Part shown: piece by piece, positions 1,263 through 60,824 of the stretch
Layout: every line of letters begins with the position of its first letter
Position numbering within the stretch: the stretch's first letter is position 1
Assembly: GCA_020853755.1 (NCBI GenBank)
Contig: JADYYG010000038.1
Location: 4,649 to 68,648 of the forward strand
DNA from: Dehalococcoidia bacterium
Lineage (GTDB): Bacteria > Chloroflexota > Dehalococcoidia > Tepidiformales > Tepidiformaceae
Direction: 5' to 3'
DNA: 64,000 bases
Made by a program: the position numbers and the translations under genes
Notes under the pieces: generated by a model
What the model saw: the letters and a program-made list of their open reading frames with translations, nothing else
Told to the model about the DNA's origin: nothing
The model's database searches: none

Positions 1263-1300
1263 CGAAACAGTGTGTCAGCCGCGGCAGATGCCTCGCAAGG

Positions 1301-3371: not shown

Positions 3372-3441
3372 CCGGACAGGGTAAGACACGGGGGCATGGA
3401 GGACACCCGGCTGCGCGGCCCGGTGTCCTCCGCCCCCGCCA

Positions 3442-4296: not shown

Positions 4297-4414
4297 GGTG
4301 AACCTTCCTGGGGTGGGTGCGTGACTCCGAACGTGGTTCGGATGTTCCGCGCGTTAGGGTAAGGGATCAGGCGTGCAGCCCCAAGGAGGCACGGCGACGG
4401 CAAACCGCGCGGCC

Positions 4415-4678: not shown

Positions 4679-4737
4679 CTGCCTGCAAGTGTCGGGCTTT
4701 GGGCGCTGGCGCGAAAGGTGGCCCCGAAAGCCCGGGT

Positions 4738-5979: not shown

Positions 5980-6136
5980 CGGGTGGGTGCTACCGGGGAA
6001 TTGCTGGGGATATGACCATCCGCCATTAACCTTTCTCCGGCCAGCCCGTTATCTCTAGTACACAAGGCGCAACCGTGCCTATGGTGGAAAGGAGGACCTC
6101 GGCCTCGCAGATTCCGGTACGGCCCAGGGGGCTGGT

Positions 6137-6706
6137 TTGGGCAATACTACGGTAGAAGAGCTGGCGCCGGAGTTCGACGAAAAAGCCATCGTCGATGCGG
6201 CGCAGGGAGGGGATCAAGCAGCGCTTGGCGCGCTCTACGATCACTACTTCCCACGCGTCTACCGCTACGTCTCAACCCGCCTTGCCTCAGCGGAAGACGC
6301 AGAAGATGTCACCACGGAGATCTTCCTCCGGATCATCGAAAACCTGCGCTCTTTCACCTGGCGAGGACTCCCCTTCGCAGCCTGGGTCTTTCGCATCGCA
6401 CGGAACGAGGTTGTCTCGCACGTGCGCCGCCAGAAAGTCCGTTCAGGCGCAGCCCAGCTCACGGAATCGATCCAGGACCCATCGCCCGATCACGTGGACG
6501 AAATCGTCACCGCCTTCACCATCCAGGAAGTCCGTGAAGCCACGGCCCTCCTGCCCGAAGCGCAACGCCAGGTGATCACCCTCCGCTTCAGCGCCGGCCT
6601 CTCCGTCGCCGAAACGGCCCAGGCCCTGGGCAAGACCGAGAACAACGTGAAAGTCCTCCAACACAAAGCCATCGCAAAACTCCAGGGGATGGTGCGTCCG
6701 CAGTGA
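6137..6706 (+). CDS. ECF-type RNA polymerase sigma-70 factor
   Basis: 189 aa with region 2 (YDHYFPRVYRYV, FAAWVFRIARNEV) and region 4 (LPEAQRQVITLRFSAGLSVAETAQALGKTENNVKVLQHKAI). TTG start is 6 nt after AGGGGG. Confidence 0.9.
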   Translation: MGNTTVEELAPEFDEKAIVDAAQGGDQAALGALYDHYFPRVYRYVSTRLASAEDAEDVTTEIFLRIIENLRSFTWRGLPFAAWVFRIARNEVVSHVRRQKVRSGAAQLTESIQDPSPDHVDEIVTAFTIQEVREATALLPEAQRQVITLRFSAGLSVAETAQALGKTENNVKVLQHKAIAKLQGMVRPQ

Positions 6707-7728
6707 TCCGCCATTTGTTCGAACGCAAAGCCACTCCCCAGGCTGAACTCCTCGCCGAAGCCCAGCCCCTGCTCGATGACGGGCTGGACCTCGACTTCGT
6801 CCTCGGGCTTTTCCCCGATGACACCGACTGGCTCGAACCACTCCTCGAAGTGACCACGGGGATCGCCGAGGCGGCCGCGTCCGAGCCGCCGAGCTACTAC
6901 TTCGAAGCCTCGCTCAAGTCGCAGTTCCTCAATGCTGCTCGCAACCCGAAGCCGGCGCAGCCTGTGGTCATGCCGGCGCCGGTCTATTCGCCCGCCCGCA
7001 CCGCTGTCGCCAGCCTCTCCGTAGCCGGCGTGGCAGCCGCGGTCGGTGCACTCGCGCTTGGCTTCATCACGGCCGGCAACGCCGTCCCCGGCGATTGGAA
7101 CTACACCTTCAAGCTGGCCAACGAACGCCTCGAATACACCCTCTCGCGCGGTGACGGCCGGGTCGATGTCCAGCTTCACCAGGTCGAGAACCGCGTGGTC
7201 GAACTGCAGAAGCTCAGCTCGCGCGGCGATGTCTCGCCTGAGCAGCTCGAACGCGCGCAGCGTGACCTCGCCGACCTCCAGCAGATAGCCGGACAGCGCG
7301 ACCTCGACCAGATGCAGCGCGCCCGCCTCGAAGGCATCGGCCGCCAGGGCAAGGCGGTCGTCGTCGCTATCAGCGAAAAGCAGCCCGACATCCCGCAGGA
7401 AACGGTCGACGCGACCGCCGCCGGCTTCGATGCCGTCGCCACCCTTGGCGCCAGCGGCCCGACGGAGATCCCGACCGCAACTGCGACGGCAACGGCCAGC
7501 CCCACGGCTTCGCCAACCACGCCGCCAACCGCTTCGCCGAGTGCATCGCCTTCGGCCACGGCCGAGCCAAGCGCGACCGCGAGCCCTCCGGCCACCACGA
7601 CGGCCACCCCTGAGCCGACCGCTTCGGCTTCGCCCACGGGCAGCGTCACCGCAGAGCCGACCTCGACAGGCACAGCCACCCCGGGCGAAACCGAGACCTC
7701 GACGCCCCCGGCGACGCATACGCCCTGA
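6703..7728 (+). CDS. putative anti-sigma / membrane protein with coiled-coil ectodomain and PT/SA-rich tail
   Basis: GTG start overlaps the sigma stop (GTGA). There is one TM helix (VASLSVAGVAAAVGALALGFI), a coiled-coil-like region and a C-terminal low-complexity T/P/A/S tract. Position directly after an ECF sigma gene. Confidence 0.75.
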   Translation: MIRHLFERKATPQAELLAEAQPLLDDGLDLDFVLGLFPDDTDWLEPLLEVTTGIAEAAASEPPSYYFEASLKSQFLNAARNPKPAQPVVMPAPVYSPARTAVASLSVAGVAAAVGALALGFITAGNAVPGDWNYTFKLANERLEYTLSRGDGRVDVQLHQVENRVVELQKLSSRGDVSPEQLERAQRDLADLQQIAGQRDLDQMQRARLEGIGRQGKAVVVAISEKQPDIPQETVDATAAGFDAVATLGASGPTEIPTATATATASPTASPTTPPTASPSASPSATAEPSATASPPATTTATPEPTASASPTGSVTAEPTSTGTATPGETETSTPPATHTP

Positions 7729-7814
7729 ACCCCCGGTTAACCCGTTCGTTGCCCCCAGCCGGGCCGCTGCCTACCCTCAGAGTGCGCCCCTTCTTACCTT
7801 CCCTGGAGTACTTC

Positions 7815-8342
7815 ATGCGACGATTCGTCCTTGCCGCCACGCCGCTGGCCCTGCTCGTCCTGACCTCAGCCTGTGGTGACGGCCCCGACAAGACAGACCA
7901 GCCGACCGCGACCGTGGAGGCGACCGCCACCCTCAATTCGGGTGAACAGCCGCAGGTGCCGGATAAGGAACTGCCAAGCCCGACGCCGATTCCCGACACG
8001 CTGCCCGTCATCCAGGTGGCGTTCGGCGGCAAGGTCTACGCGCCCACGCGGACCGAGTTCAGCGCCCTCGCGAAGACGAAGGTGACCGCCGGCGGCAAGG
8101 AGTACGAGGGCGTGACCCTCGCCGCTCTTGCTGATCAGGCCGGGGCGAAGACCGGCGCGGTCGCCACCATCCGGGGCACGCGCGCGGACAACCTCCGCCT
8201 CGGGGCCGTGCGCTTCCCGGTGGCCGATATCGGCGCGAGCACCGTCTTCATCGTTGATGACAGTGGCCACGTCACGCTCTTCAGTTCCAGCATCCCCCAG
8301 GAGCAGTGGCTCAAGGACGTCACGGCGATTGCCCTGAACTGA
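7815..8342 (+). CDS. lipoprotein (hypothetical)
   Basis: The ATG at 7815 gives MRRFVLAATPLALLVLTSAC-GDG, a signal peptide plus lipobox. The upstream part of track ORF 7749 is implausible. Confidence 0.75.
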   Translation: MRRFVLAATPLALLVLTSACGDGPDKTDQPTATVEATATLNSGEQPQVPDKELPSPTPIPDTLPVIQVAFGGKVYAPTRTEFSALAKTKVTAGGKEYEGVTLAALADQAGAKTGAVATIRGTRADNLRLGAVRFPVADIGASTVFIVDDSGHVTLFSSSIPQEQWLKDVTAIALN

Positions 8343-8727
8343 CGTCTTCCGCGAGGTCAGCGCCTCCCGGATCACCGGGGTCCAGCGCCGCCCACGCGCG
8401 CATCTCTTCCACGGTTTGCGGGTCCATCACGCTGGCTGCGAACTCCCACTGGGCGGGTGTCTGCGGCGGCACGCCGTGGATCGCGCCGCCATAGACTGCC
8501 AGTTGCATGAGGGCCGTCTCGTTGTCCTGCGCGCCGGCGCCGAGCCGTTCGGCGATGCGCGCCCAGGCAGCGGCCCGCGTCGAATCCTCCGTCCGCAAGT
8601 TCCGCGAAAGATGCCCAAGCCACGCCCAGGCCAGCCCGCGGAGGTCGGCGGCGTCGAGCGCCTCGGCGGCGCGGCGCAGGTCTTCCCCGTCTGGCGGCGG
8701 CGATGTGCAGTCCTCGTCGTTGGCCAT
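8320..8727 (-). CDS. hypothetical acidic Trp-rich protein
   Basis: The internal ATG at 8727 of track ORF 8320..9195 gives 135 aa (MANDEDCTSPPPDGEDLRRAAE..). It is transcribed divergently from the SOS-box promoter region. Confidence 0.5.
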   Translation of the reverse strand: MANDEDCTSPPPDGEDLRRAAEALDAADLRGLAWAWLGHLSRNLRTEDSTRAAAWARIAERLGAGAQDNETALMQLAVYGGAIHGVPPQTPAQWEFAASVMDPQTVEEMRAWAALDPGDPGGADLAEDVSSGQSP

Positions 8728-8836
8728 GCGTCCACGCTCGGGCAGGCGGGCTGCACCGCCAAGGCGGCGTTGGCCAGCCGCCCTCGGAGCGGCGCTGCCA
8801 ACCCCTGACGAGTTCGAACCTTCACCAAAAAGGGTC

Positions 8837-8865
8837 TTGAGACGTATCAGAACGTATGTTCTAAT
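8837..8865 (+). promoter_or_regulatory. sigma-70-like promoter (TTGAGA-N17-TCTAAT) overlapped by a Cheo-type LexA/SOS box GAACGTATGTTC (8850..8861)
   Basis: Read directly from the sequence. The -35 is 8837..8842 and the -10 is 8860..8865. The arms AGAAC / GTTCT form an inverted repeat with 4-nt spacing. It sits about 35 nt upstream of the GGAGGA SD and the ATG at 8902. Confidence 0.6.
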
Positions 8866-8901
8866 ACCTCCCCACACACAGTGTGATCGGAGGAAACCGC
8901 C

Positions 8902-9210
8902 ATGCACGAAGTGCTCGAACTGCCCGCCCGCGTTGATGCGCTGCCCGAGTACATCGACTACACCGATTCGGGGTGCGACCTCTACCCGTCGTGCCTGAAC
9001 TGCCCGCTGCCGCGCTGCCGCTACGAAGTAAGCGGCGGGGCAAGCGCGATGCTCCGCATGGGTCGCGATGCCAGCATCATCGCCGCATCGAAGCGGTACG
9101 GCGCGACCATCGATGACCTGGCGCGCACCTTCGGGCTCTCCCGCCGGACCATCTTCCGCGTTCTCGAAAAGGAACGGTCGCCGCGCGGCCTCCACGGCCG
9201 CGAGGGATGA
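8902..9210 (+). CDS. small Cys-rich HTH DNA-binding protein
   Basis: 102 aa with a GGAGGA SD 7 nt upstream. It has an N-terminal C-x5-C-x2-C-x4-C cluster (CDLYPSCLNCPLPRC) and a C-terminal HTH (IDDLARTFGLSRRTIFRVL). Confidence 0.75.
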   Translation: MHEVLELPARVDALPEYIDYTDSGCDLYPSCLNCPLPRCRYEVSGGASAMLRMGRDASIIAASKRYGATIDDLARTFGLSRRTIFRVLEKERSPRGLHGREG

Positions 9211-9219
9211 CCCTGGCGG

Positions 9220-10239
9220 CTACCAGCGGGCCTCGTGCTCCTCGATCCAGCCGAAGAGGTCGCGCACTCTGATGACCTCGCCGCTGTCCGGCACGATGGT
9301 CCCGCGGTAGACGCCGAACATCTGGTGGACTTCGGTGAACCAGGCCTCGCGGCGCCCGCTCGTGCCGTGACGGTCATACTCCGGCTCGAAGACGAGGTCG
9401 ATCCGGTCTGATTCGGAGGTGCGCACGGTCCACGGCTTCATCCAGTCCGTGCGGTCGTAGTCGAGGACGAGGTCCTCGCTGATTTTCGAAAGTTTCCCGT
9501 CGATGCAGAGGCCGTTTTCGTTCATGCCGGTGCCCGTGGTCCACTTATCGCCGAGGTTGAAGCCGACCAGCCGGCCATCCTGCACGCCCGAGGCCGCGCC
9601 CCAGTTCCAGACCGTGTGCAGTGGCCACACGCCGCGGCCGTAGTCGAGGCAGCCGAACGCGCCCTCGCCGAGTTCGTACCGCGTATCACCCAGCTGGATG
9701 TACCCGGTCGCGGGGAGCGTGTTCTGCTTCGAGGTGAACTGCATCGAGAGGTCGTTCCAGGGGATGACGACGTTGAGGGTTTCGTGGCCCTCCGGGCGGC
9801 GGACATGGATATCGGCTTCGAGCGGGTAGCCCTGGAAGTCCGCCGCCCAAACCTGCAGCCGTGTGCCGGCCCCTTCGTCCGTGTGCGAAACGCGCATGTC
9901 CGGGTGCTCGATCACCATGTCGCCGTGGACATACTCCGGGATGGCGATGGTCCCGGGCGGGCGCGTCACGGTCTTGTCCAGGTGGAGTTTCGTACCCCGG
10001 TGGAAGAAGTACGCACCGCCGAGTTGCAGCCGCTCCATGTCGGCGATGGTGGTGGAAAAGAGAAGGTCGTTGTTCGTGACCGCCCAGTAGTTCCACTTCT
10101 TCGGGCGTTCGAGCGAAGGCGCGAGGTTGCAGCGGTGCAGCGGGTGGCGCGACCAGCCGACGGCGGCGCGGTTGAAGCGCCCGTCCGGGCCGCAGAGGTC
10201 GACGGGCGAAGTCAGTTCGGGTTCGTGGTAACGGGTCAC
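9220..10239 (-). CDS. DUF2804-family protein
   Basis: Body matches my recollection of DUF2804 proteins (..PVDLCGPDGRFNRAAVGWSRHPLHRCNL.. WNWGAASG..). I chose the GTG at 10239 (VTRYHEPELTSPVDLC). The longer 412-aa form would overlap the neighbouring SDR start. Start is uncertain. Confidence 0.7.
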   Translation of the reverse strand: MTRYHEPELTSPVDLCGPDGRFNRAAVGWSRHPLHRCNLAPSLERPKKWNYWAVTNNDLLFSTTIADMERLQLGGAYFFHRGTKLHLDKTVTRPPGTIAIPEYVHGDMVIEHPDMRVSHTDEGAGTRLQVWAADFQGYPLEADIHVRRPEGHETLNVVIPWNDLSMQFTSKQNTLPATGYIQLGDTRYELGEGAFGCLDYGRGVWPLHTVWNWGAASGVQDGRLVGFNLGDKWTTGTGMNENGLCIDGKLSKISEDLVLDYDRTDWMKPWTVRTSESDRIDLVFEPEYDRHGTSGRREAWFTEVHQMFGVYRGTIVPDSGEVIRVRDLFGWIEEHEARW

Positions 10240-26611: not shown

Positions 26612-27808
26612 GTGACCGTCGACCTCGCCTGCAGGGAAGCCATCACCCGCCCGGCGGAGTACTTCGGCCGCGCGCTGGACGATGGCCCGGTGCAGTGGAG
26701 TGATGCCCAGCACGCCTGGCTCGCCCTCTCCCACGCCGAAGTCGAGGCTGGCTTCCGCGACGGCGAACTCCTTTCGGCCGAACGCAGCGGCGTGTTCGCC
26801 CGCGCCGCCCGCGGCCGCAGTGAAGCGTTCACCCGCGCGGTCGACATGCTCAGCGCATGGATGAACTTCCGCGATCCGCCGGCCCATACCCGCCTGCGCG
26901 GCCCGGTCAAAGGCGCGTTCACGCCGCGCGCAGTGGCGGCGTTCGAGGCCCGGGTCCAGGCCATCGTCGATGCTGCCATCGACCGCTTCGCCGACGGCGG
27001 CGTGGTCGACCTGAACGAAAGCTTCGCTCATCCCGTCCCGGCGCTCGTCATCGCCGCGATCCTCGGCGCGGACGAGGGGGACCGTGAACGCTTCCAGGGC
27101 TGGTCCGACGACATCGGCCGCCTCGTCTTCGCGATGGAGCCGGGCAAGGTGGACGAGGCGCCGGTGAACCGCGCGACTGCCGAATTCGTGAGCTTCTTCG
27201 GCCGCCTGATCGAACGGGAACGAGCAGAGCCTTCGGGCAGCGTCCTCTCCGCAATCGTCCATTCGGACATCGGCGAACTGAGCGAGATGGAACTCGTTGG
27301 AGCCTGCACGCTCATCCTCTTCGGCGGGCACGAAACGACAACGACGCTTTTGACCAACGCCTTCAGCATCCTCCTCGAACGGCCGGACCTCGTGGACTGG
27401 TTGCGGCGCCACCCGGAGGGGACGGCGACCGCCGTCGAGGAGTTCATGCGGGTGGCCGGCCCGGCCCGGAGCATGCCGCGCAAGGTGGCGAAGACCCACG
27501 AGCGCGGCGGCCAGCTGCTGCGCGAGGGCCAGAACATCTTCCTCGCCATCGTCTCGGCGAACCACGACCCGGCGGTCTTCACCGACCCCGGCGAAATTGA
27601 CCTTACGCGGGACCCGAACCCGCACCTCGGATTCGGCTGGGGTCTCCACTTCTGCCTTGGCGCGAACCTGGCCCGGCTCGAAGCCACGACGGCGCTGCGC
27701 ACGCTCCTCGCGCGCTTCCCCCGCTTCGAGCCGGCGGGCCCGGTGGCGGAGGTGCGGGCGAGCGCGATGGGGTTCGGGCGCCGCCCGGTCCTCGCTCGGC
27801 TTCGCTGA
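26612..27808 (+). CDS. cytochrome P450
   Basis: 398 aa with the I-helix GGHETT, ExxR and haem-binding FGWGLHFCLG. Confidence 0.9.
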   Translation: MTVDLACREAITRPAEYFGRALDDGPVQWSDAQHAWLALSHAEVEAGFRDGELLSAERSGVFARAARGRSEAFTRAVDMLSAWMNFRDPPAHTRLRGPVKGAFTPRAVAAFEARVQAIVDAAIDRFADGGVVDLNESFAHPVPALVIAAILGADEGDRERFQGWSDDIGRLVFAMEPGKVDEAPVNRATAEFVSFFGRLIERERAEPSGSVLSAIVHSDIGELSEMELVGACTLILFGGHETTTTLLTNAFSILLERPDLVDWLRRHPEGTATAVEEFMRVAGPARSMPRKVAKTHERGGQLLREGQNIFLAIVSANHDPAVFTDPGEIDLTRDPNPHLGFGWGLHFCLGANLARLEATTALRTLLARFPRFEPAGPVAEVRASAMGFGRRPVLARLR

Positions 27809-28487: not shown

Positions 28488-28868
28488 ATGCCGATTCCAG
28501 TTGTAATGGGCGCCCAGATCATGTGTTCCTTTGGGACCGGACCCGGGTCGTTAATCGTGGTCCCACAGGGGCCGCCAGTGCTGATCGAAGGGAAGCCCGC
28601 CGCAACGGTGATGGACCACATCCCGTTCGTGAACATCGCGCCGTTCCCGACCTGCATCGCGCCGACGAACCCGGCCGGGATGGCGAAAGTGCCGCCAACG
28701 CCCGGCCCGTGCATCCCGGTGACCACGGCCCCCTGGGTTCCCCCGTCACCGACAACTCAGATCAACAAGAAGCCGGCACTCTGCATGGGCGCGACGCTGA
28801 TGTGTACCGCCTGGGCGGGCGTCATCACCATCGTGAACCCCGGCGCCACCAAGGAAATCGTCAACTAG
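28488..28868 (+). CDS. DUF4280 (PAAR-like spike-tip) domain protein
   Basis: 126 aa. The pattern VVMGAQIMCSFGTGPGSL..GKPAATVMDHIPFVNIAPFPTC..PGPCIPVTTAPWVP..KPALCMGATLMC..GVITI follows the DUF4280 Cys/Pro pattern closely. Confidence 0.8.
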   Translation: MPIPVVMGAQIMCSFGTGPGSLIVVPQGPPVLIEGKPAATVMDHIPFVNIAPFPTCIAPTNPAGMAKVPPTPGPCIPVTTAPWVPPSPTTQINKKPALCMGATLMCTAWAGVITIVNPGATKEIVN

Positions 28869-30208
28869 GACGCCCGGCTGCGCCCGAACGCCCGCCGCTC
28901 GGGCCGGAGGCCTTCGGCTGCGCGCAGGCAGAGGGCCAGGCTCGCCACGCAGTCATCGTGTTCGCCCTGCGGCGCGGCCCACCCGATCTGGAGATGGCCC
29001 GCGCGTTCGACCCGGCAGAGGCGCAGTTCGCGCCAGAGCCGGCCAATCCCGGCGCTCCCGGCCCGGGCAATGGCGAGGCGGCCCGTCGCCGCGGCGGCCT
29101 GCAAGGCGAACCCCAGCGCTGACTTCTCGGCACGGGTGAAGACGAGCGGCTCGACTACCCGCCCGAGTTCGCCACGGAGCTGCGCGGTGAGCGCCGCGCC
29201 GAGGCCGGTGGCATCGCAGACCAGCCGCTCGATTCGCCAGGCGCGGGCAAGCGCCGCCACCGCCGCAACCTGCGTTTCGAACGGCGTGCCGGTCCAGCAT
29301 TCGACGGCCACGACCTCCAGCCCGCCATCGGTTTGCCGGCCGATGGTGAGGACGGTCGAGTCGCCGCCGAGCCGTTCGCCCGCGAAATCGAGCCCGGCGC
29401 AGTAGCGTTCGCCCGGCAGTGGTTGTTCGAGCGCCGGGAAGCTGCCGGCGACGGCGCGGAGGGCCTCGGGTGAGAGCAGCGTTGCCTCGGACGCCGCGGC
29501 CACCAGGTCGTACTGGGACCGGAAGATCGGGTGATCCGCACCAAGGCGCTCGCGTTCGAGTTCGACGTAGCGGCCATAGGGCGGGTTGTACCGCGCGACC
29601 TCGGCCCAGCTGAACTGGTGGTGCCAGCTGCGGAGGCTGATTTCCGCCGGGCTCCCGGTCAGGCCCGCGTCGCGCCGGCGGTTGGCTTCGACGGCGTCTT
29701 CGAGAAGCGAGTTGCCGCTCCACGGCGTGCCGAACATCACCGTCGATGCTCCAGTTGATGCCGTCATCGGCCGGAACTGGCGGTTGAACCAGTCAGCATC
29801 GATGTCCTGCGCTTCGTCGGCGATGAGGGCGAGCGAGGCGGTGTGCCCGGCGACGTTCGCGGTTGGCGCGGCGCTGAGGAAGACGGCGTGCGCGCGGCCG
29901 CAATGGATGGCCTGGCCCTCGCGCCGCGGGCGGATTGGGAAGAGGTCATCCCAGCGGCGCATCTGGGCGAGCGTGCGCTGGAGGCTTAGGCCCGCCTGGG
30001 GCCGGAAGCTCGGCGCGCAGACCACGATGCTGCCGCCTTCGGCGGCGTTCGCCAGTAACAGCCCGGCCACCAGCCACGCCGAGATCTCATTCTTGCCTGC
30101 CTGCCGCGGGAACATCACGGTCAGCGTCTGGCCGCGGGCCGCGACGAGGTTGTAGTGGAGGCTGCGAAGCGTAGCCGCCTGGTAGGCGCGAAGACCGGGG
30201 ATTGCCAT
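28865..30208 (-). CDS. phage terminase large-subunit-like protein
   Basis: 447 aa with the N-terminal LRAYQ...FPRQAGKNE (Walker A-like, GKN instead of GKS/T) and LALIADEAQDI (Walker B). The C-terminal RNaseH-like nuclease acidic residues are present (GLDFAGE, VCDATGLG, GEHDDCV). Codon usage looks host-like. Confidence 0.75.
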   Translation of the reverse strand: MAIPGLRAYQAATLRSLHYNLVAARGQTLTVMFPRQAGKNEISAWLVAGLLLANAAEGGSIVVCAPSFRPQAGLSLQRTLAQMRRWDDLFPIRPRREGQAIHCGRAHAVFLSAAPTANVAGHTASLALIADEAQDIDADWFNRQFRPMTASTGASTVMFGTPWSGNSLLEDAVEANRRRDAGLTGSPAEISLRSWHHQFSWAEVARYNPPYGRYVELERERLGADHPIFRSQYDLVAAASEATLLSPEALRAVAGSFPALEQPLPGERYCAGLDFAGERLGGDSTVLTIGRQTDGGLEVVAVECWTGTPFETQVAAVAALARAWRIERLVCDATGLGAALTAQLRGELGRVVEPLVFTRAEKSALGFALQAAAATGRLAIARAGSAGIGRLWRELRLCRVERAGHLQIGWAAPQGEHDDCVASLALCLRAAEGLRPERRAFGRSRAS

Positions 30209-37332: not shown

Positions 37333-37902
37333 TCATTGCGCCGCTTCGGCGAGGCCGGCCTGCCAGCCCGGCGCGCGGCAACCCGGCGGCAGCGAGAGTT
37401 CCTCCGGGTGCAGCCCGGCCCTCGCGAGGATCCACGCCAGCGCCGAATCGGAGGTCCACATCTCCGGGTGGCCCGGGCGGCGGCGGCCCCAGGTGTAGGC
37501 TGGGACCGAACGGCTGGCGGCGACAATTGCCTCGACGGTTTCGGCGTCACCGGCAAGGCGGACTGGCGGCGCCACCGCCCACTGCTGGTCCGGCAGCGCG
37601 GCGTTCGGCAACAGGCAGACCTGGTAGCGAAACAGCCGCAGCCTGCCCGCGGCGGCGATGCCAACAGGCCCGGTCACTTCGTCGCGGGTGTTCGGCCCAG
37701 GCGGCGACGGCATCAGTTCGAGGGTGAAGGATTCGCCGTGCAACCGGCAGACCAGCCCGCCGTGTACGAGACGCTGACGCGGGCGGCGCGCAATCGTGGC
37801 GGCGCACCATTCGTACGCGAGGAGCGAAGCCCGCTGGAAGTGCGTCCCCGCGCCGACCGGGATCCACCAGAGGTCGACGCTGGAATCACCGGGAGGTTCC
37901 AC
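37333..37902 (-). CDS. conserved hypothetical protein
   Basis: 189 aa. The N-terminal VDLWWIPVGAGTHF motif recalls an uncharacterised family common in high-GC Gram-positives. No function assigned. Confidence 0.65.
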   Translation of the reverse strand: MEPPGDSSVDLWWIPVGAGTHFQRASLLAYEWCAATIARRPRQRLVHGGLVCRLHGESFTLELMPSPPGPNTRDEVTGPVGIAAAGRLRLFRYQVCLLPNAALPDQQWAVAPPVRLAGDAETVEAIVAASRSVPAYTWGRRRPGHPEMWTSDSALAWILARAGLHPEELSLPPGCRAPGWQAGLAEAAQ

Positions 37903-37979: not shown

Positions 37980-38579
37980 TCAGGCTGGCACGTAGAGGCG
38001 GTGCTGGCGCACACGGTTCTTTCGCCCGTAGGTGTGGAGTAGCTGCCGGAAGGCGGTCTGGCGCGCCCGCGCGAGAGCGGCGTACCGTTCGCTGGCCTCC
38101 GGTTGGAGGGTGACGATATTCGTGACGCCGGCTGCCAGTTCGAGCGCCGCATAGGCCGCCGCGCCCGTCACCAGGACGTCCGCCAGGTGGTCCGGCAGCG
38201 TCGAACCATCCTCGTCGAGCACGTGCGAGGCCGTGTAGAAGACGCGCACGTCCGCTCCGTCGGGCGGCGAATCGGTGTGCAGGATGAGTGTTTGCGCCCA
38301 GGTTCCGAAGCCCGGGTAACACGGCGGGTACTGTCCGATGGGGTACTCGACCATCTCCACTTCGATCAGGGCGTCGAGCGCGGAGAGGTCGAGGTCGCGG
38401 CTACCCGCCGTGGTCGCGATGTCCTCGGACAGTTCGCGCGGGATGGCAAGGCTCAGGTCGGAAAGCGCGTGGGCGATGTGCCGGTCGATCTGGTCATCCG
38501 GCCAGGCCGTGGCATCGAGGTCGGACAGGTCGCTGCGGACGCGCCCGCGGATATCGGTGAGGGTGGTCATGGCGGTCAC
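37980..38579 (-). CDS. phage-associated hypothetical protein (possible head-completion / neck adaptor)
   Basis: 199 aa. The pattern LTDIRGRVRSDLSDLD..WPDDQIDRHIAHALSDLSLAIPRE ... RLYVPA resembles proteins I have seen next to capsid genes in prophages. The assignment rests on recollection only. Confidence 0.4.
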   Translation of the reverse strand: MTAMTTLTDIRGRVRSDLSDLDATAWPDDQIDRHIAHALSDLSLAIPRELSEDIATTAGSRDLDLSALDALIEVEMVEYPIGQYPPCYPGFGTWAQTLILHTDSPPDGADVRVFYTASHVLDEDGSTLPDHLADVLVTGAAAYAALELAAGVTNIVTLQPEASERYAALARARQTAFRQLLHTYGRKNRVRQHRLYVPA

Positions 38580-45199: not shown

Positions 45200-46090
45200 T
45201 CAGGCCGCGCGCACGCCGGTGAGCCGGGCCAGCTTTACGCTGTTGAACAGCGCGAGCCCCGCGTACCACTTCACCCGCACGCGGCTGGCGTCCTTCGTTT
45301 CGAGGTTGCCGACGCGGTCGACGGTGAGGCCGCCGGGAGCGGTCAGCCCGCTGAGCGCTCCCTCGCCGAACTGCATCGCGTAGATGGTGCTGCAGTCGTT
45401 GCTCGTGCCGACGGTTTTCGCGTCGCTGATGTAGTCGCAAATGCCGATCGGCACGCCGTCGTAGTACTGGACCATGTGGCCGAACTGGTCGCGGTCCGCT
45501 TCGAGGAAGCCGCCGCTGGCGCGGGCCAGTTCGTTCAGCGTGCGCCGGGTGCGGCGGCTCATCAGCAGCAACTCCGGCTTGCCGCCGCGCACCTTGTCGA
45601 TCATCTCGTCGAGTTTCGCCAGCGTGAGGACGGCGCCGTTCGTGCCCATGCTGACCGATTGCCCGGCGGCGCAGAGCACGTCGATGCCGTCGAAGCTCAG
45701 CGGGTCCACGCCGTCGTCGCCGTTCACGAAGGTGTCGTCGAAGAGCGCCTGGACGGCCTTCGCCTTGAGCTGGACGACCGCGGCTTCGAGGTCCTGGATG
45801 TTCGAACGGGTGGACTTGAGGAAGTTATCGACGTCCGCGTCGCCGCCGAGGATTTTCAGCGTCGCGGTCGCCTGGGTGAAGGTCGGCGTGCTTTCGTCCC
45901 AGTCGTCGCCGACGTCGTAGAAGCTGGCCGAGGGAGCGGCGTTTTCACGGTTGTAGGTCAGGCCGTTGCCGACGATCTCGACGAACGGCAGGCGCTGGAG
46001 GATGGGGCTTTCGAGCGCGATCGTCTCGATCACGCCGGTGAGCAGCGAGTCGTTGCTCAGTTTCGAAGCTTCGACGAGGGTCAGGGCCAA
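45200..46090 (-). CDS. phage major-capsid-like protein (presumed HK97-fold)
   Basis: TTG start at 46090, 7 nt after a perfect AAGGAGG, giving 296 aa. The N-terminus ALTLVEASKLSNDSLLTGVIETIALESPILQRLPFVEIVGNGLTYNRE resembles a recurrent phage MCP family from memory. The upstream 76 aa of the track ORF are implausible. Confidence 0.65.
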   Translation of the reverse strand: MALTLVEASKLSNDSLLTGVIETIALESPILQRLPFVEIVGNGLTYNRENAAPSASFYDVGDDWDESTPTFTQATATLKILGGDADVDNFLKSTRSNIQDLEAAVVQLKAKAVQALFDDTFVNGDDGVDPLSFDGIDVLCAAGQSVSMGTNGAVLTLAKLDEMIDKVRGGKPELLLMSRRTRRTLNELARASGGFLEADRDQFGHMVQYYDGVPIGICDYISDAKTVGTSNDCSTIYAMQFGEGALSGLTAPGGLTVDRVGNLETKDASRVRVKWYAGLALFNSVKLARLTGVRAA

Positions 46091-57472: not shown

Positions 57473-58316
57473 TGAGGAACCCGTTGACGTGACCCATGAA
57501 GACCTCGAACTGGTCGTGGTGCACCCAGTGGCCGGCGTTCGCCACCTCCACCGAGCGGACATCGTGGAAGGCGCTGAGGTCGACCACGCCGGAGCGATTG
57601 CCCCAGCTCTCCTTGCCCCAGATCACCAGCAACGGGCAGCGAATCTGGTTCCAGAGGTCGCGCGCGTCTTCCATGTTGAACTCGTAGGGCGAACCGGCGT
57701 GGGTGTAGTTGTCGAACTTCCACGTATAGCCGTCTTCGACCTTGCGGACGCCCTGTTCGGTGAGATGGCGGGCCAGTTCCGGCGTGAGGTGGCGGTTGGC
57801 CTCGCGCATCCTCTGCGTGGCCTCATCGATGCTGGCGTAGATGTGGAGCCGGCGCCCTTCGAGGCCCTTCATGCTCTCCACCCAGGAGCGCATGCGGACG
57901 TGCGCGGGCCTTCGTTCACGCGTCCAGCCGAGGCCCCCGAGGCCCTCGATGGTGATCAGCCGGCTGATCTGCTCGGGGAAAGCGCCCGCGTACTGGAGCG
58001 TCACTCCGCCGCCGAGCGAGTGCCCGATGATGGTGTATGGCCCGCGCCCGATCTCCTCGCCGAGGGCGTGGATGTCGAGGGCGTAATCGATGATCGAGTA
58101 GTTGCCGCCCTGGGCCCACGCTGAATCGCCGTGGCCGCGGAGGTCCGGCGCATACACGCAGTAGCGGTCGGCCAGGGCCTGGGCTGTCCGGTCCCAGCTG
58201 CGGGCGTGGTCCCGCGTGCCGTGGACGAGGATGAGCGGCGGCTTCGCCTCATCGCCCCAGACCACGTAGTGCATCTTCAGTCGTTGCGAATAGTAATAGC
58301 GGCTCTCTGGCTCCAT
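57465..58316 (-). CDS. alpha/beta-fold hydrolase
   Basis: 283 aa with HGTRDH, the nucleophile elbow GHSLGG and a C-terminal His (AGHWVHHD). Confidence 0.85.
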   Translation of the reverse strand: MEPESRYYYSQRLKMHYVVWGDEAKPPLILVHGTRDHARSWDRTAQALADRYCVYAPDLRGHGDSAWAQGGNYSIIDYALDIHALGEEIGRGPYTIIGHSLGGGVTLQYAGAFPEQISRLITIEGLGGLGWTRERRPAHVRMRSWVESMKGLEGRRLHIYASIDEATQRMREANRHLTPELARHLTEQGVRKVEDGYTWKFDNYTHAGSPYEFNMEDARDLWNQIRCPLLVIWGKESWGNRSGVVDLSAFHDVRSVEVANAGHWVHHDQFEVFMGHVNGFLNG

Positions 58317-58465
58317 AGCTCACCAAGGGTAAGCGGCAAGCCTGTGGCAGGGAATCCGCGTGTGAACCCGGGCTCGCCGGCGCAACTGCTGAGTGATTTT
58401 GTCCGAAGCGCGGTGACAAACCTCCCTTCGCCGTCGGGTGCGAAGGAAAACACCCTTGTCCCGCG

Positions 58466-60535
58466 ATGCTCACTCTCACCAGCACCCTCCAAGCCGCCAT
58501 CGGCGACCCTCGCCGTAAGCCCGCTATCGCCGCCTCAGTCCAGCCCTACCGCTTCAACGTCCCCATCCTCACCGCTTCCTGGCTCGGCGCCAACGGCTCC
58601 GCCGATACCCAACTCTCCCTCGCCGTCAATCCCACCGACCGCTCAAAGCTCGTCGCTGTCCGCTCCAACGGCACCGCCCTCGACTTCTCTACCCCCTACC
58701 CCTCCGGCGCCTGGACTAACCTCGACACTATCTCCGCAGGCCAGGGCTTCCAGCTCGCCTACGACCCCACAGCCGCCGTCTTCGCCGTCGCCTATGGTGA
58801 CGGTACGGCCCTCAAATTCCGCACCTCCGCTGACGGCCTCACCTGGTCCGCCGCCACCACCATCGTCACCGAGGCCTCTAACATCGGAGCCGTCGCACTC
58901 GCCTTCGACGACTCCGGCGACGCCTGCGTCTTCTACGTCATCGGCACCTCCACCACCCTCAACCGCATCCGCCGCACAGCTGGCGCCTGGGCGGCCTCCG
59001 GCGCCAACTGGTCCCGCTCGTCCAGCGTCGCCAACCTCACCGGCCTCGCCGCCTACTGGCGCGCCGACTACTTCCTCGCCGTCACCGGCCTCGCCGCCAC
59101 ATCCCTCGCCCCCACCGCCTGGGCGGTCCGCATGGGAGACACCTTCTACGCCCCCAACGCCTGGTCAACCCTCAAAACCATCACCGAGGCTGACCCAGCC
59201 TCTACACTCACCTTCGCCTACCCCTCCATCGTCGACTTCGACGGCTACGCCTTCGCCACCTTCCAGCGCACCGAAGCCGGCAACGTCCCCAGCCAGACCG
59301 TCCAGCTCGCCCACTCCCTCTCTCCCGGCCCTATCGGCCTCTGGTCGGAACCTCGCCCCGTCCCATGGATCGACACCACCCACGGAGCCGCACTCGCACA
59401 CTTCGACGACGACACCTACAACCTCACCTGGATCGCAGGCTCCGCCTACGGCCACGTCTCCCAGCATCCCCCTTCCTACGACGTCTCAGCCCGCATCCTC
59501 GCACTCTCCTACCGCCTCACACCCGGCTCCCTCAGCCTCCGGCTCGAGCTCGACAACCACGACGGCAACGCACGCTTTCACCCCTCAGCCGACTTCCGCA
59601 TCGACGTCGGCCGCGACGTCCTCGTCTCCCTCGGCTACCACACCTCAGCCGGAGCCGAGCACGCCACCTTCCTCCGCGCCAACATCCACCGCATCACCGA
59701 CCAGATCGGCCCCGGCGCTCACCGCCTCATCATCGAGGCTAGCGGCCCATGGGAAGCCATGGACCGCTACCGTGCCCTCGCCGCCTGGACTGCACCCGCA
59801 GGCACCACCCGCGGCAACACCTTCCAGCGCGTCGCCGCTCTCGCCGGCCTTGAAGTCTCCACCGCCTCCGGCGGCTTCGCACCCTCCACCGCCTGGACCA
59901 CCGACACCCCGGCCTTCGCCATCGCCGCCGGCGAGAAGGGTTCAACCACCCTTCAACGCCTCCTCACCGTCACACCCGACTTTGTCCGCCCAGCCTTCGG
60001 CTCCGGCGGCCTTGAAATCTGCACCGCACCCGTCGACACCTCCGGCGCGCCCATCTTCGCCCTCGGCCCTTCCCCTGGTTCCCCCTACCCCCTGCTTGAC
60101 CTCCAACTCGCCGACCAGCTCGCGCCCAACCTCTTCCGCCTGCAGGGTCCCGACCGCTACGCCGACTCCGCCCGTCTCGGCGCCGACGGCTACGTCGACA
60201 TCCTCAGCGTCGGCCCCGCCGCCCAGCTCGTCCGTGACCTGGACGCCACCACCAACACCGCCGCCACCACCCGCGCCGCCAACGCCCGCAAACGCGCCCT
60301 GCAGCTGGAGCCTCGCGGCCGCGCCGTCGTCCCATTTCACCCCGGCCTTGAACTCTTCGACCCCGTCGCCTTCCGCTGGAACCTCAACCCCCTCGACGGA
60401 CTGGAAGACGCAACCCGCCGCATCGTCGGCCTCGCCGTCGACTACCGCGCCGACCCGGCCCCAGCCGCCGGCGCCGGTCGCGTCGCCTACACCGCCACAC
60501 TCGACCTCGCCGAAGCCGCCGGCTTCGACGGCTAA
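58466..60535 (+). CDS. phage tail/baseplate-hub-like protein with N-terminal Asp-box (BNR) beta-propeller-like region
   Basis: 689 aa. It has SADGLTW (Asp-box). The C-terminal half (..LSLRLELDNHDGNARF..DVLVSLGYHTSAGAEHATFLRANIHRI..LIIEASGPWEAM..) resembles gpD/gp27-type hub proteins from memory. Almost every codon ends in C. The 897-aa alternative frame 58131..60824 is a P/S/T-rich shadow. Confidence 0.6.
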   Translation: MLTLTSTLQAAIGDPRRKPAIAASVQPYRFNVPILTASWLGANGSADTQLSLAVNPTDRSKLVAVRSNGTALDFSTPYPSGAWTNLDTISAGQGFQLAYDPTAAVFAVAYGDGTALKFRTSADGLTWSAATTIVTEASNIGAVALAFDDSGDACVFYVIGTSTTLNRIRRTAGAWAASGANWSRSSSVANLTGLAAYWRADYFLAVTGLAATSLAPTAWAVRMGDTFYAPNAWSTLKTITEADPASTLTFAYPSIVDFDGYAFATFQRTEAGNVPSQTVQLAHSLSPGPIGLWSEPRPVPWIDTTHGAALAHFDDDTYNLTWIAGSAYGHVSQHPPSYDVSARILALSYRLTPGSLSLRLELDNHDGNARFHPSADFRIDVGRDVLVSLGYHTSAGAEHATFLRANIHRITDQIGPGAHRLIIEASGPWEAMDRYRALAAWTAPAGTTRGNTFQRVAALAGLEVSTASGGFAPSTAWTTDTPAFAIAAGEKGSTTLQRLLTVTPDFVRPAFGSGGLEICTAPVDTSGAPIFALGPSPGSPYPLLDLQLADQLAPNLFRLQGPDRYADSARLGADGYVDILSVGPAAQLVRDLDATTNTAATTRAANARKRALQLEPRGRAVVPFHPGLELFDPVAFRWNLNPLDGLEDATRRIVGLAVDYRADPAPAAGAGRVAYTATLDLAEAAGFDG

Positions 60536-60553
60536 CCACACCCCAAAAACCCC

Positions 60554-60581
60554 AACCTCAAACCTCAAACCTCAAACCTCT
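60554..60581. repeat. heptamer array aacctca x3 + aacctct
   Basis: Direct reading. It lies in the 76-nt spacer between 58466..60535 and 60612..60824, embedded in C/A-rich sequence. Confidence 0.85.
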
Positions 60582-60611
60582 ACCCCCCAACCCCTACCCC
60601 CGGAGCCCCCC

Positions 60612-60824
60612 ATGGCCGTCCTTCGCGCCCACCTCGTCAGCTTCGACTCAGGAACCTACCTCGCCACCGTCCGCGTCGACGGCTCAGCCGCCCAGGTCCT
60701 CGCCGGCATCCCCACCGCACGCGACATCGCCGCCGCCGAGATGACCGCAGGCCGCCGCGTCCTCCTCGACACCGGCGACCACAACCACCCCTCAGACTTC
60801 GTCGTCACCGTCGTCTACGTCTGA
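60612..60824 (+). CDS. small beta-rich hypothetical protein (phage-tail-associated type)
   Basis: ATG at 60612, 7 nt after GGAG, gives 70 aa (MAVLRAHLVSFDSGTYLATVRVDGSAAQVLAGIPTARDI...). It shares the extreme C-ending codon bias of the preceding gene. Confidence 0.55.
   Translation: MAVLRAHLVSFDSGTYLATVRVDGSAAQVLAGIPTARDIAAAEMTAGRRVLLDTGDHNHPSDFVVTVVYV

What the first reader, a model, noticed from the sequence alone, without database searches (positions are those of the whole stretch)
58466..60824. 2.36-kb block with extreme C-over-G coding-strand bias encoding a hub-like Asp-box protein and a 70-aa partner
Nearly every codon in both ORFs ends in C (CTC, GCC, CCC, ACC, TCC, GTC, CGC, GGC).

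A hand count of 58521..58580 gives 31 C and 8 G. The same-strand P450 gene gives 21 C and 23 G over 26641..26700. The bias starts at the ATG (58466) and stops at the TGA (60824). It also creates an 897-aa P/S/T-rich shadow ORF.

No other gene in the window is this skewed, including the other phage-like genes. That suggests a different origin or a different selective regime for this pair.

The large protein combines an Asp-box (SADGLTW) propeller-like N-terminus with a C-terminal half resembling baseplate-hub or late-control-D proteins. Such a protein could carry the DUF4280 tip encoded 30 kb away.
Basis: seen in the sequence. Interest (0 to 1): 0.6.

Follow-up and report, generated by a model that had tools for sequence, protein, structure and literature searches.

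The report
G-starved phage tail-hub gene pair
Two adjacent genes for the tail tip (hub plus plug) of a phage-derived particle kept by Dehalococcoidia bacteria are almost stripped of the letter G on their coding strand, and comparison with relatives shows that natural selection, not foreign origin, maintains this, for a reason still unknown.

Summary
Window 58466-60824 is the most G/C-skewed stretch of the 3.37-Mb genome (GC skew -0.38; GC3 skew -0.80, against -0.17 +/- 0.11 for 2,175 ORFs).

The 689-aa protein is a beta-propeller fused to a gp27/Mu-gp44/gpD-type tail hub. The 70-aa partner is an OB-fold like the N-terminal domain of phage spikes. In other Dehalococcoidia families the order is capsid, SU10-type adaptor, hub, OB in one operon. 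The pair is therefore the tail tip of the scattered, gene-transfer-agent-like set that this scan had already noted on this same DNA (e1-3859527).

The skew is not a mark of a foreign donor:
- It recurs in relatives with 30-61% identical hubs, but only in part of the family, and patchily.
- Synonymous divergence in the pair is 2.5-4 times lower than in flanking genes, and C/G third-position differences are about 10 times lower. A non-skewed lineage shows neither effect.
- G is depleted at all three codon positions, specifically in the hub.
- Predicted mRNA folding energy is about two thirds of the genome average, and half that of non-skewed orthologues.

The 897-aa shadow ORF is a by-product. 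A DUF4280 partnership is not supported.

The ultimate cause is unresolved. My best guess is selection for a nearly structure-free coding message. No expression data were available.

The parts
58466..60535 (+). Gene for the 689-aa tail-hub protein (GC3 skew -0.80; G 22%, C 48%)
   Evidence: ORF. The start ML(T/S)L is conserved in 22 homologues. AlphaFold2 model has pLDDT 86.8 and pTM 0.86.
58508..59470 (+). N-terminal beta-propeller domain (about residues 15-335), with the Asp-box-like SADGLTW at residues 121-127 (nt 58826-58846)
   Evidence: All-beta secondary structure. Foldseek matches to sialidase/pseudaminidase and PLL-lectin propellers have E 1e-10 to 1e-7. The canonical SxDxGxTW is seen in homologues.
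59483..60532 (+). C-terminal gp27/gpD/Mu gp44-type hub domain (about residues 340-689)
   Evidence: Foldseek PDB matches: eCIS baseplate hubs 7aef_q and 7b5h_AJ (E 3e-14), MuSo2 43-kDa tail protein 3cdd, Mu gp44 1wru and 9ki1_G, P1 hub 9vzk_1, VgrG1, T4 gp27 1k28_D. TM normalised on the target is 0.6-0.7 for the 325-aa hubs. BFVD matches are 'phage protein D' and '43 kDa tail protein'.
60536..60611 (+). 76-nt C/A-only spacer with four AACCTCA heptamers (60554-60581). Its only Gs are the GGAG Shine-Dalgarno at 60602-60605
   Evidence: Sequence. Composition is A .30, C .58, G .04, T .08. The array is longer (123 nt) in the 96%-identical strain L052. Spacers of other loci are not G-poor.
60612..60824 (+). 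Gene for the 70-aa OB-fold partner ('plug'); GC3 skew -0.87
   Evidence: ORF. It follows the hub gene, on the same strand, in nearly all loci where it was found. 413 homologues of 68-71 aa were found. The model has pLDDT 93 and a five-strand barrel. Foldseek hits include the OB domains of P2 gpV, the R2 pyocin spike, Mu gp45 and the P1 spike, with E 5e-3 to 2e-2.
58131..60824 (+). 897-aa P/S/T-rich 'shadow' ORF: a by-product, not a gene
   Evidence: Its codon position 2 is the real position 3 (C), so its codons read NCN. In seven orthologues this frame has 1-10 stops, as codon-shuffled controls predict.
45200..46090 (-). Context: major-capsid-like gene of the same particle set (GC3 skew only -0.19 to -0.32)
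   Evidence: Found in 172 of 301 class genomes, in the same families as the hub. It lies 0.7-3 kb upstream of the hub in most of them.
37980..38579 (-). Context: SU10-type head-to-tail adaptor gene. In other families it lies directly upstream of the hub gene
   Evidence: Pfam PF24175, E 5e-7. The order adaptor-hub-OB is contiguous in 13 of 15 loci from other families.
28865..30208 (-). Context: large terminase-like gene of the set (ordinary skew, -0.15)
   Evidence: Pfam Terminase_6C, E 9e-12.

Best explanation
What it is (shown, about 0.85). The block is a two-gene unit for the tail tip of a phage-derived, host-kept particle. The first gene encodes a hub protein, a receptor-type beta-propeller fused to a gp27/gpD-type hub. 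The second encodes a 70-aa OB-fold plug that corresponds to the N-terminal domain of a phage central spike. In most Dehalococcoidia families the two genes end a capsid, SU10-adaptor, hub, OB operon. In the window's family the operon has been scattered.

How the skew is kept (shown, about 0.8). In part of this family, G on the sense strand of the translated sequence is removed by purifying selection. C replaces G at four-fold sites. A replaces it where C is not synonymous (AAA, CAA, GAA). TCN replaces AGC. G-first codons are also lost (Val, Gly, Glu and Arg go down; Thr, Ile and Asn go up).

Why (inferred, about 0.4). G is the limiting pairing partner in a C-rich RNA. Its removal brings the predicted folding of the coding RNA to about two thirds of the genome average, and to half that of non-skewed orthologues. 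The operon then reads as NNC codons on an almost structure-free message that ribosomes can cross unhindered.

Unexplained: why the hub-plug unit needs this and the capsid, adaptor and terminase genes do not.
For: Identity.
- The operon order is capsid-adaptor-hub-OB in other families.
- Hub (158 of 301 genomes) and capsid (172 of 301) share the same family distribution.

Selection rather than mutation.
- W against strain L052 (96% nt identity): codons with a synonymous difference are .032 in the hub and .079-.127 in six flanking genes. C/G third-position differences are 3 in 690 codons, against about .04 per codon. Non-synonymous change is not reduced.
- Two further skewed pairs repeat this (synonymous .14-.17 against .20-.35; C/G .03 against .08-.19).
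- The non-skewed pair G242/G281 shows no reduction (.309, C/G .218).

Nucleotide level rather than tRNA level.
- A-ending codons are kept or raised (TCA .19 against .06 in the genome and .02 in ribosomal genes; AAA .50).
- In skewed against non-skewed orthologues G falls at position 1 (.38 against .45), position 2 (.20 against .25) and position 3 (.11 against .35).
- The capsid of the same genomes shows no such shift.
- C3 is no commoner at conserved residues (Mantel-Haenszel odds ratio 1.00).

Translated sequence only.
- The 5' flank, the 276-nt spacer of L008 and the spacers of L001, L004 and L005 have normal G.
- Extra ORFs lying between hub and OB (L043, and the M23 peptidase of L053) are skewed.

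Folding.
- The block gives -31 kcal/mol per 120 nt, against -45 +/- 8 for the genome.
- Skewed orthologues give -27 to -36, non-skewed ones -57 to -61.
Against:
- Native sequences fold no less than synonymous shuffles of the same composition (z -3.2 to +2.0). Nothing beyond composition therefore points to structure avoidance.
- Ribosomal and EF genes, which should profit most from fast translation, have GC3 skew of only -0.06 to -0.36.
- A hub is needed in few copies per particle. In alphaproteobacterial GTAs the tail-tip genes are the least codon-adapted (PMC9765227).
- Non-skewed relatives live with a strongly folding hub mRNA.
- The trait is patchy within the family.
- Kin are not independent, so the group comparisons overstate significance.
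Confidence: 0.45

Rival explanations
1. Ordinary translational (tRNA-level) selection, unusually strong. C-ending codons are this family's optimal codons, and the hub-plug operon is expressed in very large bursts, as phage late genes are.
For: - CAI against a ribosomal/EF reference correlates with GC3 skew (r = -0.55). The hub (.70) and the OB gene (.775) lie above the genome mean of .577.
- The next most C3-skewed genes are GDH, GAPDH, a NirK-like gene, MurC and EF-G.
- T-ending codons are purged as in ribosomal genes (GAT .02, ATT 0).
- The bias is graded among lineages.
- The capsid carries a bias of the same type (-0.56 to -0.64) in genus g3.
- GTA genes of Alphaproteobacteria show selection for translational efficiency (PMC9765227).
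Against: - A-ending rare codons are not purged but raised. CCC and TCC replace CCG and AGC, which ribosomal genes keep.
- G also falls at codon positions 1 and 2, which tRNA choice cannot explain.
- The bias far exceeds that of ribosomal and EF genes.
- The hub's CAI is not among the top values, which reach .84.
- The copy number of a hub is low.
Confidence: 0.2
2. Immunity code. The G-poor coding sequence protects the mRNA from a ribosome-dependent, G-preferring endoribonuclease (RelE type) or another G-dependent RNase. Tail-tip proteins can then still be made when bulk translation is shut down.
For: - RelE cleaves after C and before G in the A site and strongly avoids cutting before C, so NCG codons are the best substrates and NNC the worst (PMC5224514). 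The hub has lost NCG codons almost entirely.
- The skew is confined to translated sequence.
- PF05016 (RelE/ParE) genes were found in 8 of 8 strongly skewed genomes. They were found in 0 of 5 genomes of genera g3 and g6, although g6 is rich in PIN and MazF toxins.
- G000 has four PF05016 genes, one of them RelE/StbE-like.
Against: - The prospective test failed. G314 has 13 PF05016 genes and hub skew -0.16. G302 has 10 and -0.36. G312 has none and -0.58.
- There is no avoidance of C3|G1 junctions (observed/expected 1.02).
- PF05016 also covers ParE gyrase poisons.
- The capsid and terminase mRNAs of the same set are not protected.
Confidence: 0.12
3. Rho gate. The 2.4-kb C-rich, G-poor transcript is one giant Rho-utilisation region, so the operon is transcribed to its end only when translation is tightly coupled or Rho is antagonised.
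For: - C>G, unstructured RNA is the accepted signature of rut sites (PMC6144790 and PMC9160355, found; the content is from my own knowledge).
- The block is the strongest such region of the genome.
- A rho gene is present (607 bits).
- From my own knowledge, not checked here: anti-termination controls the Caulobacter GTA cluster.
Against: - Untranslated parts, where Rho could load best, are not skewed in most loci.
- One rut of about 80 nt would suffice, yet every synonymous site is constrained.
- No anti-terminator was identified.
Confidence: 0.08
4. Foreign origin or gene-specific mutation bias. The block came from a donor with this composition, or a strand-specific mutational process depletes G.
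For: - The pair sits at different loci in genomes of one genus. Hubs of that genus fall in two clades, with g3 hubs between them.
- An integrase-bearing IMG/VR contig carries a skewed hub-M23-OB module.
- Cassette exchange within the family is therefore likely.
Against: - All hubs of the family form one clade inside the class-wide tree.
- No hit in 50,697 phage records.
- Terminase and portal on the viral contig are unskewed.
- A mutation-driven equilibrium predicts more, not about 10 times fewer, C/G differences between close strains.
- As I recall, transcription-linked deamination would lower C, not G, on the sense strand.
Confidence: 0.04
5. Dual coding. The 897-aa P/S/T-rich frame, or an antisense frame, is a real gene that constrains position 3.
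For: The frame is open over 2.7 kb in the window.
Against: It carries 1-10 stops in seven orthologues, no fewer than synonymous shuffles give, and no antisense frame is kept open. NCG codons, which could never make a stop in that frame, are removed as thoroughly as NTG codons.
Confidence: 0.01

Closest known systems
Central baseplate hub plus spike of Mu/P2-type phages and contractile injection systems (Mu gp44 + gp45, P2 gpD + gpV, T4 gp27 + gp5, VgrG)
   Same: The C-terminal half has the hub fold. The next gene encodes an OB barrel like the N-terminal domain of gpV, gp45 and the R2 pyocin spike. Hub and spike chains of the same solved baseplates (9ki1 G and V, 9vzk 1 and q) match the two proteins.
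   Different: - No Pfam or PHROG profile matches.
- A roughly 330-aa beta-propeller is fused in front of the hub.
- The 'spike' is cut down to 70 aa, with no beta-helix or apex.
- No tube, sheath or baseplate genes lie nearby. The ancestral neighbours are a capsid and a podovirus-type (SU10) adaptor.
Gene transfer agents with multi-locus genomes (RcGTA and relatives), and their codon and composition biases (PMC7360931, PMC9765227)
   Same: Phage structural genes are kept by the host, inherited within a class, scattered over loci, and lie among core genes. GTA genes are known to carry special codon bias whose strength varies between genes and taxa.
   Different: - In RcGTA-like GTAs the capsid gene is the most adapted and the tail-tip genes g12-g15 the least. 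Here the tail tip is extreme and the capsid ordinary.
- The bias here is removal of G at all codon positions, not a match to the tRNA pool.
- Particle production and DNA packaging are untested.
- No paper in the held library links GTAs with Chloroflexota.
mRNAs that escape endoribonuclease toxins by lacking the target, such as ACA-less mRNAs and MazF, or codon-dependent reprogramming by MazF/VapC in mycobacteria (from my own knowledge), and RelE specificity (PMC5224514)
   Same: A whole coding sequence is depleted of one short RNA feature, with a per-site effect. NNC codons are the poorest RelE substrates.
   Different: No toxin is linked to the trait. The co-occurrence test failed in an enlarged sample.
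Rho-utilisation (rut) regions
   Same: C-rich, G-poor RNA with little predicted structure. Rho is encoded in the genome.
   Different: Known rut sites span about 80-100 nt and are often untranslated. Here 2.3 kb of translated sequence is affected and the untranslated parts mostly are not.

Membership tests
gp27/gpD/Mu gp44 baseplate-hub family | Hub fold (tandem pseudo-symmetric beta-barrel domains) | tested here: met
   Foldseek E 3e-14 to 1e-8 to more than 30 solved hubs, with TM on the target 0.6-0.7. Viral models 'protein D' and '43 kDa tail protein' also match. The model has pLDDT 86.8.
gp27/gpD/Mu gp44 baseplate-hub family | Sequence-profile match (Pfam Phage_GPD or PHROG hub families) | tested here: not met
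   No Pfam or PHROG family at E <= 1. No PDB sequence hit.
gp27/gpD/Mu gp44 baseplate-hub family | Trimer that seats a central spike; genes for tube, sheath or baseplate alongside | tested here: not met
   The neighbours are core genes in the window and capsid plus adaptor in other families.
Phage central spike (gpV / gp45 / gp5) | N-terminal OB domain followed by a trimeric beta-helix and an apex | tested here: not met
   Only the OB barrel is present. It is 70 aa with five strands, and its matches to the spike OB domains are weak (E 5e-3 to 2e-2).
BNR/Asp-box beta-propeller (sialidase-like) | Repeated S-x-D-x-G-x-T-W motifs on a propeller fold | tested here: inconclusive
   Propeller-type fold matches to sialidases and PLL lectins have E 1e-10 to 1e-7 but low TM. 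There is one motif, one residue short in the window (SADGLTW) and canonical in homologues. Catalytic residues were not examined.
Gene transfer agent (viriform) | Phage-derived structural genes kept in the host genome, scattered, vertically conserved, without phage replication or lysogeny genes at the loci | tested here: met
   The hub is in 158 and the capsid in 172 of 301 class genomes, in the same families. Nine loci show core-gene neighbours. Caveat: one relative lies on an integrase-bearing viral contig.
Gene transfer agent (viriform) | Particles that package and transfer host DNA | not testable with these tools
   This needs culture, microscopy and transfer assays.
Highly expressed genes under translational selection | Codon use shifted in the same way as ribosomal/EF genes, including loss of rare A-ending codons | tested here: not met
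   The direction is the same for C against T endings. However, A-ending codons are raised, CCG is replaced although ribosomal genes keep it, and CAI is only .70/.775.
PAAR/DUF4280-capped spike complex | The DUF4280 gene co-occurs with the hub | tested here: not met
   The DUF4280 orthologue is in 10 of 301 genomes, against 158 with the hub. It was not found in the skewed genera g4 and g5. This was a single-protein search, so distant homologues may have been missed.
Rho-utilisation region | C>G, weakly structured RNA, with Rho present | tested here: met
   C .48 / G .21 and -31 kcal/mol per 120 nt. rho is present. Termination itself is not testable here.

The most novel reading that the evidence does not exclude
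Removal of G from a coding sequence acts as a cis 'pass'. It lets the tail-tip messages, and only those, be read in the particle-producing cell state, when bulk mRNA or translation is shut down by a G-dependent nuclease, a stalled-ribosome surveillance system or loss of coupling. The pass travels with the hub-(lysin)-plug cassette between active phages and domesticated particle sets. It has been gained or lost several times within one bacterial family.
Probability: 0.2. Interest if true: 0.85.

Novelty: new variant of a known kind. Interest (0 to 1): 0.66.

Why it matters
- It assigns a tail tip (hub plus plug) to the scattered phage-derived particle genes of Dehalococcoidia. It also recovers their ancestral capsid-adaptor-hub-plug operon, a minimal short-tailed design. 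This makes the candidate gene-transfer-agent-like system of a large, mostly uncultured class more concrete.
- It documents a rare thing: one operon whose synonymous sites are constrained far more than those of ribosomal genes. The constraint is nucleotide-level (G avoidance), appears and disappears between close genera, and also marks the tail-tip module of a related viral contig.
- It runs opposite to the pattern reported for alphaproteobacterial GTAs, where tail-tip genes are the least adapted.
- Whatever reads G in this message (ribosome, nuclease or Rho) would be a new layer of control of virus-like particle production. It is directly testable by synonymous recoding.

Tried and rejected
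1. Foreign donor or mutation bias. Rejected by the lowered synonymous divergence and the about 10-fold deficit of C/G differences, and by the family-level monophyly of the hubs.
2. Dual coding. The shadow and antisense frames are not conserved.
3. Translational accuracy. C3 is no commoner at conserved residues (odds ratio 1.00).
4. RelE/ParE link. A first contrast looked good (8/8 against 0/5). It failed on new genera, and there is no C|G junction avoidance.
5. Structure avoidance beyond composition. Not seen against synonymous shuffles.
6. Shine-Dalgarno difference. Most hubs, skewed or not, lack an SD.
7. tRNA set. Ordinary, with one GNN tRNA per four-fold box.
8. A second skewed region. C46 is a G-rich repeat protein, C3 a T/P-rich linker and C43 holds gatC plus non-coding DNA. 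None is like this block.
9. No paralogue in the genome.
10. DUF4280 as a constant partner. Rejected.
11. Shared promoter with capsid, terminase and adaptor. Only a loose GTTCG-type resemblance was seen by eye, and it was not tested.
13. No relevant literature on Chloroflexota GTAs, and no mention of phage particles in the Tepidiforma paper.
Full report
OBSERVATION

The block is real and exceptional.
- Sliding GC skew is -0.28 to -0.41 inside the block and near zero upstream. The 150 nt on either side have normal G.
- In the 3.37-Mb assembly (63 contigs, 66% G+C) it is the most skewed of 12,999 2-kb windows: -0.384, against a genome SD of 0.053 and a next extreme of 0.24.
- It is the only stretch longer than 600 nt beyond |0.30| at 400-nt scale.
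- The 689-aa ORF has GC3 skew -0.80, against -0.166 +/- 0.111 for 2,175 coding-like ORFs. It also has the lowest total G of all of them.220, against a mean of .323, SD .021 and a next lowest of .255.
- NNG codons of four-fold boxes are nearly absent: GTG 0/48, ACG 1/71, CCG 2/47, GGG 0/63.
Ribosomal, EF-Tu and EF-G genes have GC3 skew of only -0.06 to -0.36. The next most skewed genes (GDH, GAPDH, a NirK-like gene, MurC) reach -0.4 to -0.57.

WHAT THE GENES ENCODE

Neither protein hits Pfam, PHROGs or PDB sequences.

The hub:
- An AlphaFold2 model built on 22 homologues is confident (pLDDT 86.8, pTM 0.86).
- Residues from about 340 to 689 match solved central hubs. These are eCIS baseplates 7aef and 7b5h, MuSo2 3cdd, Mu gp44 (1wru, 9ki1_G), the P1 hub 9vzk_1, VgrG1 and T4 gp27. 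E values run from 3e-14 to 1e-9, and TM on the 325-aa targets is 0.6-0.7.
- They also match viral 'protein D' and '43 kDa tail protein' models.
- Residues from about 15 to 335 form a beta-propeller with sialidase- and lectin-type matches.
- SADGLTW (residue 121) is an Asp-box one residue short. The canonical motif stands in the 655-aa homologues.

The partner:
- The 70-aa protein models as a five-strand OB barrel (pLDDT 93).
- Besides generic OB domains, it matches the N-terminal OB domains of P2 gpV, the R2 pyocin spike, Mu gp45 and the P1 spike, weakly (E 5e-3 to 2e-2).
- The pair therefore parallels Mu gp44+gp45 or P2 gpD+gpV, with the spike cut down to its OB 'plug'.

CONTEXT

- The hub family occurs in 158 of 301 sampled genomes of the class, mostly once per genome.
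- The small protein has 413 relatives of 68-71 aa and follows the hub in nearly every locus.
- In nine loci read in full, the neighbours are ordinary chromosomal genes.
- The capsid-like gene of this window (45200-46090, minus strand) occurs in 172 of 301 genomes of the same families and usually lies 0.7-3 kb upstream of the hub.
- In 13 of 15 loci from other families the SU10-type adaptor gene directly precedes the hub, and where the flank reaches far enough the capsid precedes the adaptor. There the hub ATG often abuts the adaptor's stop codon.
- The ancestral unit is therefore capsid, adaptor, hub, OB. In the window's family it has been scattered.
That note was taken as a lead. Only the capsid's distribution and its linkage to the hub were checked here.
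- The hub evolves fast. Within one genus it is 39-61% identical where the capsid is 85-94% identical.
- Hubs of that genus fall into two clades with another genus between them, and they sit at different loci. Cassette replacement within the family is therefore likely.
- No isolated phage record carries a relative.
- One IMG/VR contig does, in the order integrase, hub, M23 peptidase, OB, terminase, SPP1-type portal.
- The DUF4280 gene is no constant partner. Its orthologue is in 10 of 301 genomes.

THE SKEW IN RELATIVES

- GC3 skew of hub and OB is -0.51 to -0.85 in the metagenomic loci L001-L009, against -0.35 to +0.18 in their neighbours.
- It is not family-wide. In the class sample it is strong only in some genera of the window's own family, and -0.1 to -0.4 elsewhere.
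- Further genera of the family give a graded, patchy picture from -0.16 to -0.85.
- On the hub tree, strongly and weakly skewed rows are interleaved. For example, weakly skewed genus g3 is nested among strongly skewed rows, and the viral contig (-0.82) is sister to a -0.23 row.
- On the viral contig the hub, the M23 peptidase and OB are skewed (-0.71, -0.51, -0.67), but the terminase is not (-0.27).

SELECTION, NOT MUTATION OR ANCESTRY

W against strain L052 (96% nt identity):

| Measure | Hub | OB | Six flanking genes |
|---|---|---|---|
| Codons with a synonymous difference | .032 | .028 | .079-.127 |
| Codons with a non-synonymous difference | .028 | .014 | .006-.059 |
| C/G third-position differences | 3 in 690 codons | not given | about .04 per codon (commonest class) |

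- Two more skewed pairs repeat this: synonymous .14-.17 against .20-.35, and C/G .03 against .08-.19.
- In the non-skewed pair G242/G281 the hub is as divergent as its flanks (.309; C/G .218).
- A G-depleting mutation pressure at equilibrium would raise, not lower, C/G differences. The data therefore point to purifying selection against G3, specific to the skewed lineages.

NUCLEOTIDE LEVEL, TRANSLATED SEQUENCE ONLY

- The pattern is not that of ribosomal genes. A-ending codons are kept or raised (TCA .19, AAA .50). CCC and TCC replace CCG and AGC. CAI against a ribosomal reference is only .70/.775, where the top genes reach .84.
- Skewed hubs have less G than non-skewed orthologues at position 1 (.38 against .45), position 2 (.20 against .25) and position 3 (.11 against .35). 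Thr doubles, Ile and Asn rise, and Val, Gly, Glu and Arg fall.
- The capsid of the same genomes shows no such shift. Across the genome G3 does not co-vary with G1 or G2.
- C3 is no commoner at conserved residues (odds ratio 1.00). This speaks against selection for translational accuracy.
- Non-coding parts are mostly unskewed. These are the 5' flanks, the 276-nt spacer of L008 and the spacers of L001, L004 and L005. Extra ORFs between hub and OB are skewed.
- The C/A-only heptamer spacer is peculiar to the window's strain group.

PHYSICAL CONSEQUENCE

| Sequence set | Predicted folding, kcal/mol per 120 nt |
|---|---|
| This block | -31 |
| Genome (random 120-mers) | -45 +/- 8 |
| Skewed orthologues | -27 to -36 |
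| Non-skewed orthologues | -57 to -61 |

Native sequences fold no less than synonymous shuffles, so composition alone accounts for the effect.

WHY

This step is inferred. I commit, at about 0.4, to selection for a nearly structure-free, NNC-coded reading frame that ribosomes cross unhindered. This reading fits four things:
- C replaces G where synonymous, and A replaces it elsewhere.
- Positions 1 and 2 are affected too.
- The effect is confined to translated sequence.
- The loss of predicted folding energy is what that composition produces.

It does not explain why only the tail-tip unit is affected. It also sits badly with the weak bias of ribosomal genes, and with the reverse pattern in alphaproteobacterial GTAs (PMC9765227).

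Rivals:
- Very strong tRNA-level selection (0.2).
- Protection from a RelE-type, G-preferring A-site nuclease (0.12). RelE's specificity fits (PMC5224514). A first contrast of toxin gene presence looked good, but a prospective test on new genera failed, and C|G junctions are not avoided.
- A Rho gate (0.08). rho is present, but untranslated parts are unskewed.
- A foreign donor or mutation bias (0.04).
- Dual coding (0.01).

LIMITS

- Genomes other than G000 have no genome-wide background, so their skews were compared with flanking genes only.
- Related genomes are not independent samples.

VERDICT

The structural reading is supported. 'A different selective regime' is supported and sharpened to selection against G in the translated message. 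A foreign donor and the DUF4280 link are not supported.

The pair is a new member of the hub/spike kind, in a domesticated phage set. It carries an unusual, selected compositional regime whose cause is open.

Noticed in passing
window 60554-60581; L052:8750-8872; L001:10089-10137; L005:9969-10019; L006 upstream of 8001: Short tandem heptamer arrays sit between (or just before) the hub and OB genes. The unit differs by lineage: AACCTCA x4 in the window, about ten CCTCA[AC]A units in the 96%-identical strain L052 (123-nt against 76-nt spacer), GAATCGT in L001, CCAACGG-like in L005 and CAGTCCT x3 in L006. Copy number thus changes between close strains.
   Followed up: partly
L053 (IMGVR_UViG_3300045902_000464) 1297-10052: A viral contig carries integrase, hub, M23 peptidase, OB, terminase and SPP1-type portal in a row. 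The three tail-tip genes are C3-skewed (-0.71, -0.51, -0.67) and the terminase is not (-0.27). It may be an active phage relative of the domesticated set, or a donor of hub cassettes.
   Followed up: partly
G056, G242, G281 capsid genes (loci L065, L063, L064): In genus g3, whose hub is only weakly skewed (-0.3), the capsid gene has GC3 skew -0.56 to -0.64. Which particle gene carries the strong C3 bias therefore differs between genera.
   Followed up: partly
window 58425-58446: A 7-bp hairpin (CCTTCGC-N8-GCGAAGG) lies 20 nt before the hub ATG. Its 3' arm is changed at two positions in strain L052, and it is missing in G184/L001, so it is probably not functional. Most hub genes, skewed or not, lack a Shine-Dalgarno sequence.
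   Followed up: partly
L007:8001-10113 (Ca. Amarobacter glycogenicus contig): The hub gene is called as two ORFs (497 + 160 aa) whose matches to the query overlap. This is either a frameshift or an assembly error.
   Followed up: no
genome contig C46:99427-104922 (outside the window): An 1,832-aa repetitive protein gene has a G-rich sense strand (GC skew +0.24) and is the second most skewed region of the genome. Amino-acid repeats drive the skew, not position 3.
   Followed up: partly
genome contig C43:59700-62400 (outside the window): About 2.7 kb with 60% G+C has no convincing ORF and includes a C-rich 600-nt stretch (skew -0.39). It may be an RNA gene or decayed DNA.
   Followed up: no
genome contig C17:17430-18680 (outside the window): The rho gene lies in a 623-aa open frame, about 200 aa longer than the 415-position family model. 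This suggests an N-terminal extension.
   Followed up: no
window 37333-37902 (-) and L001:17134-17787, L040:1357-1923: A 189-217-aa gene without any Pfam family always follows the SU10-type adaptor gene in this family (75% identity). It is a further candidate component of the particle set.
   Followed up: partly
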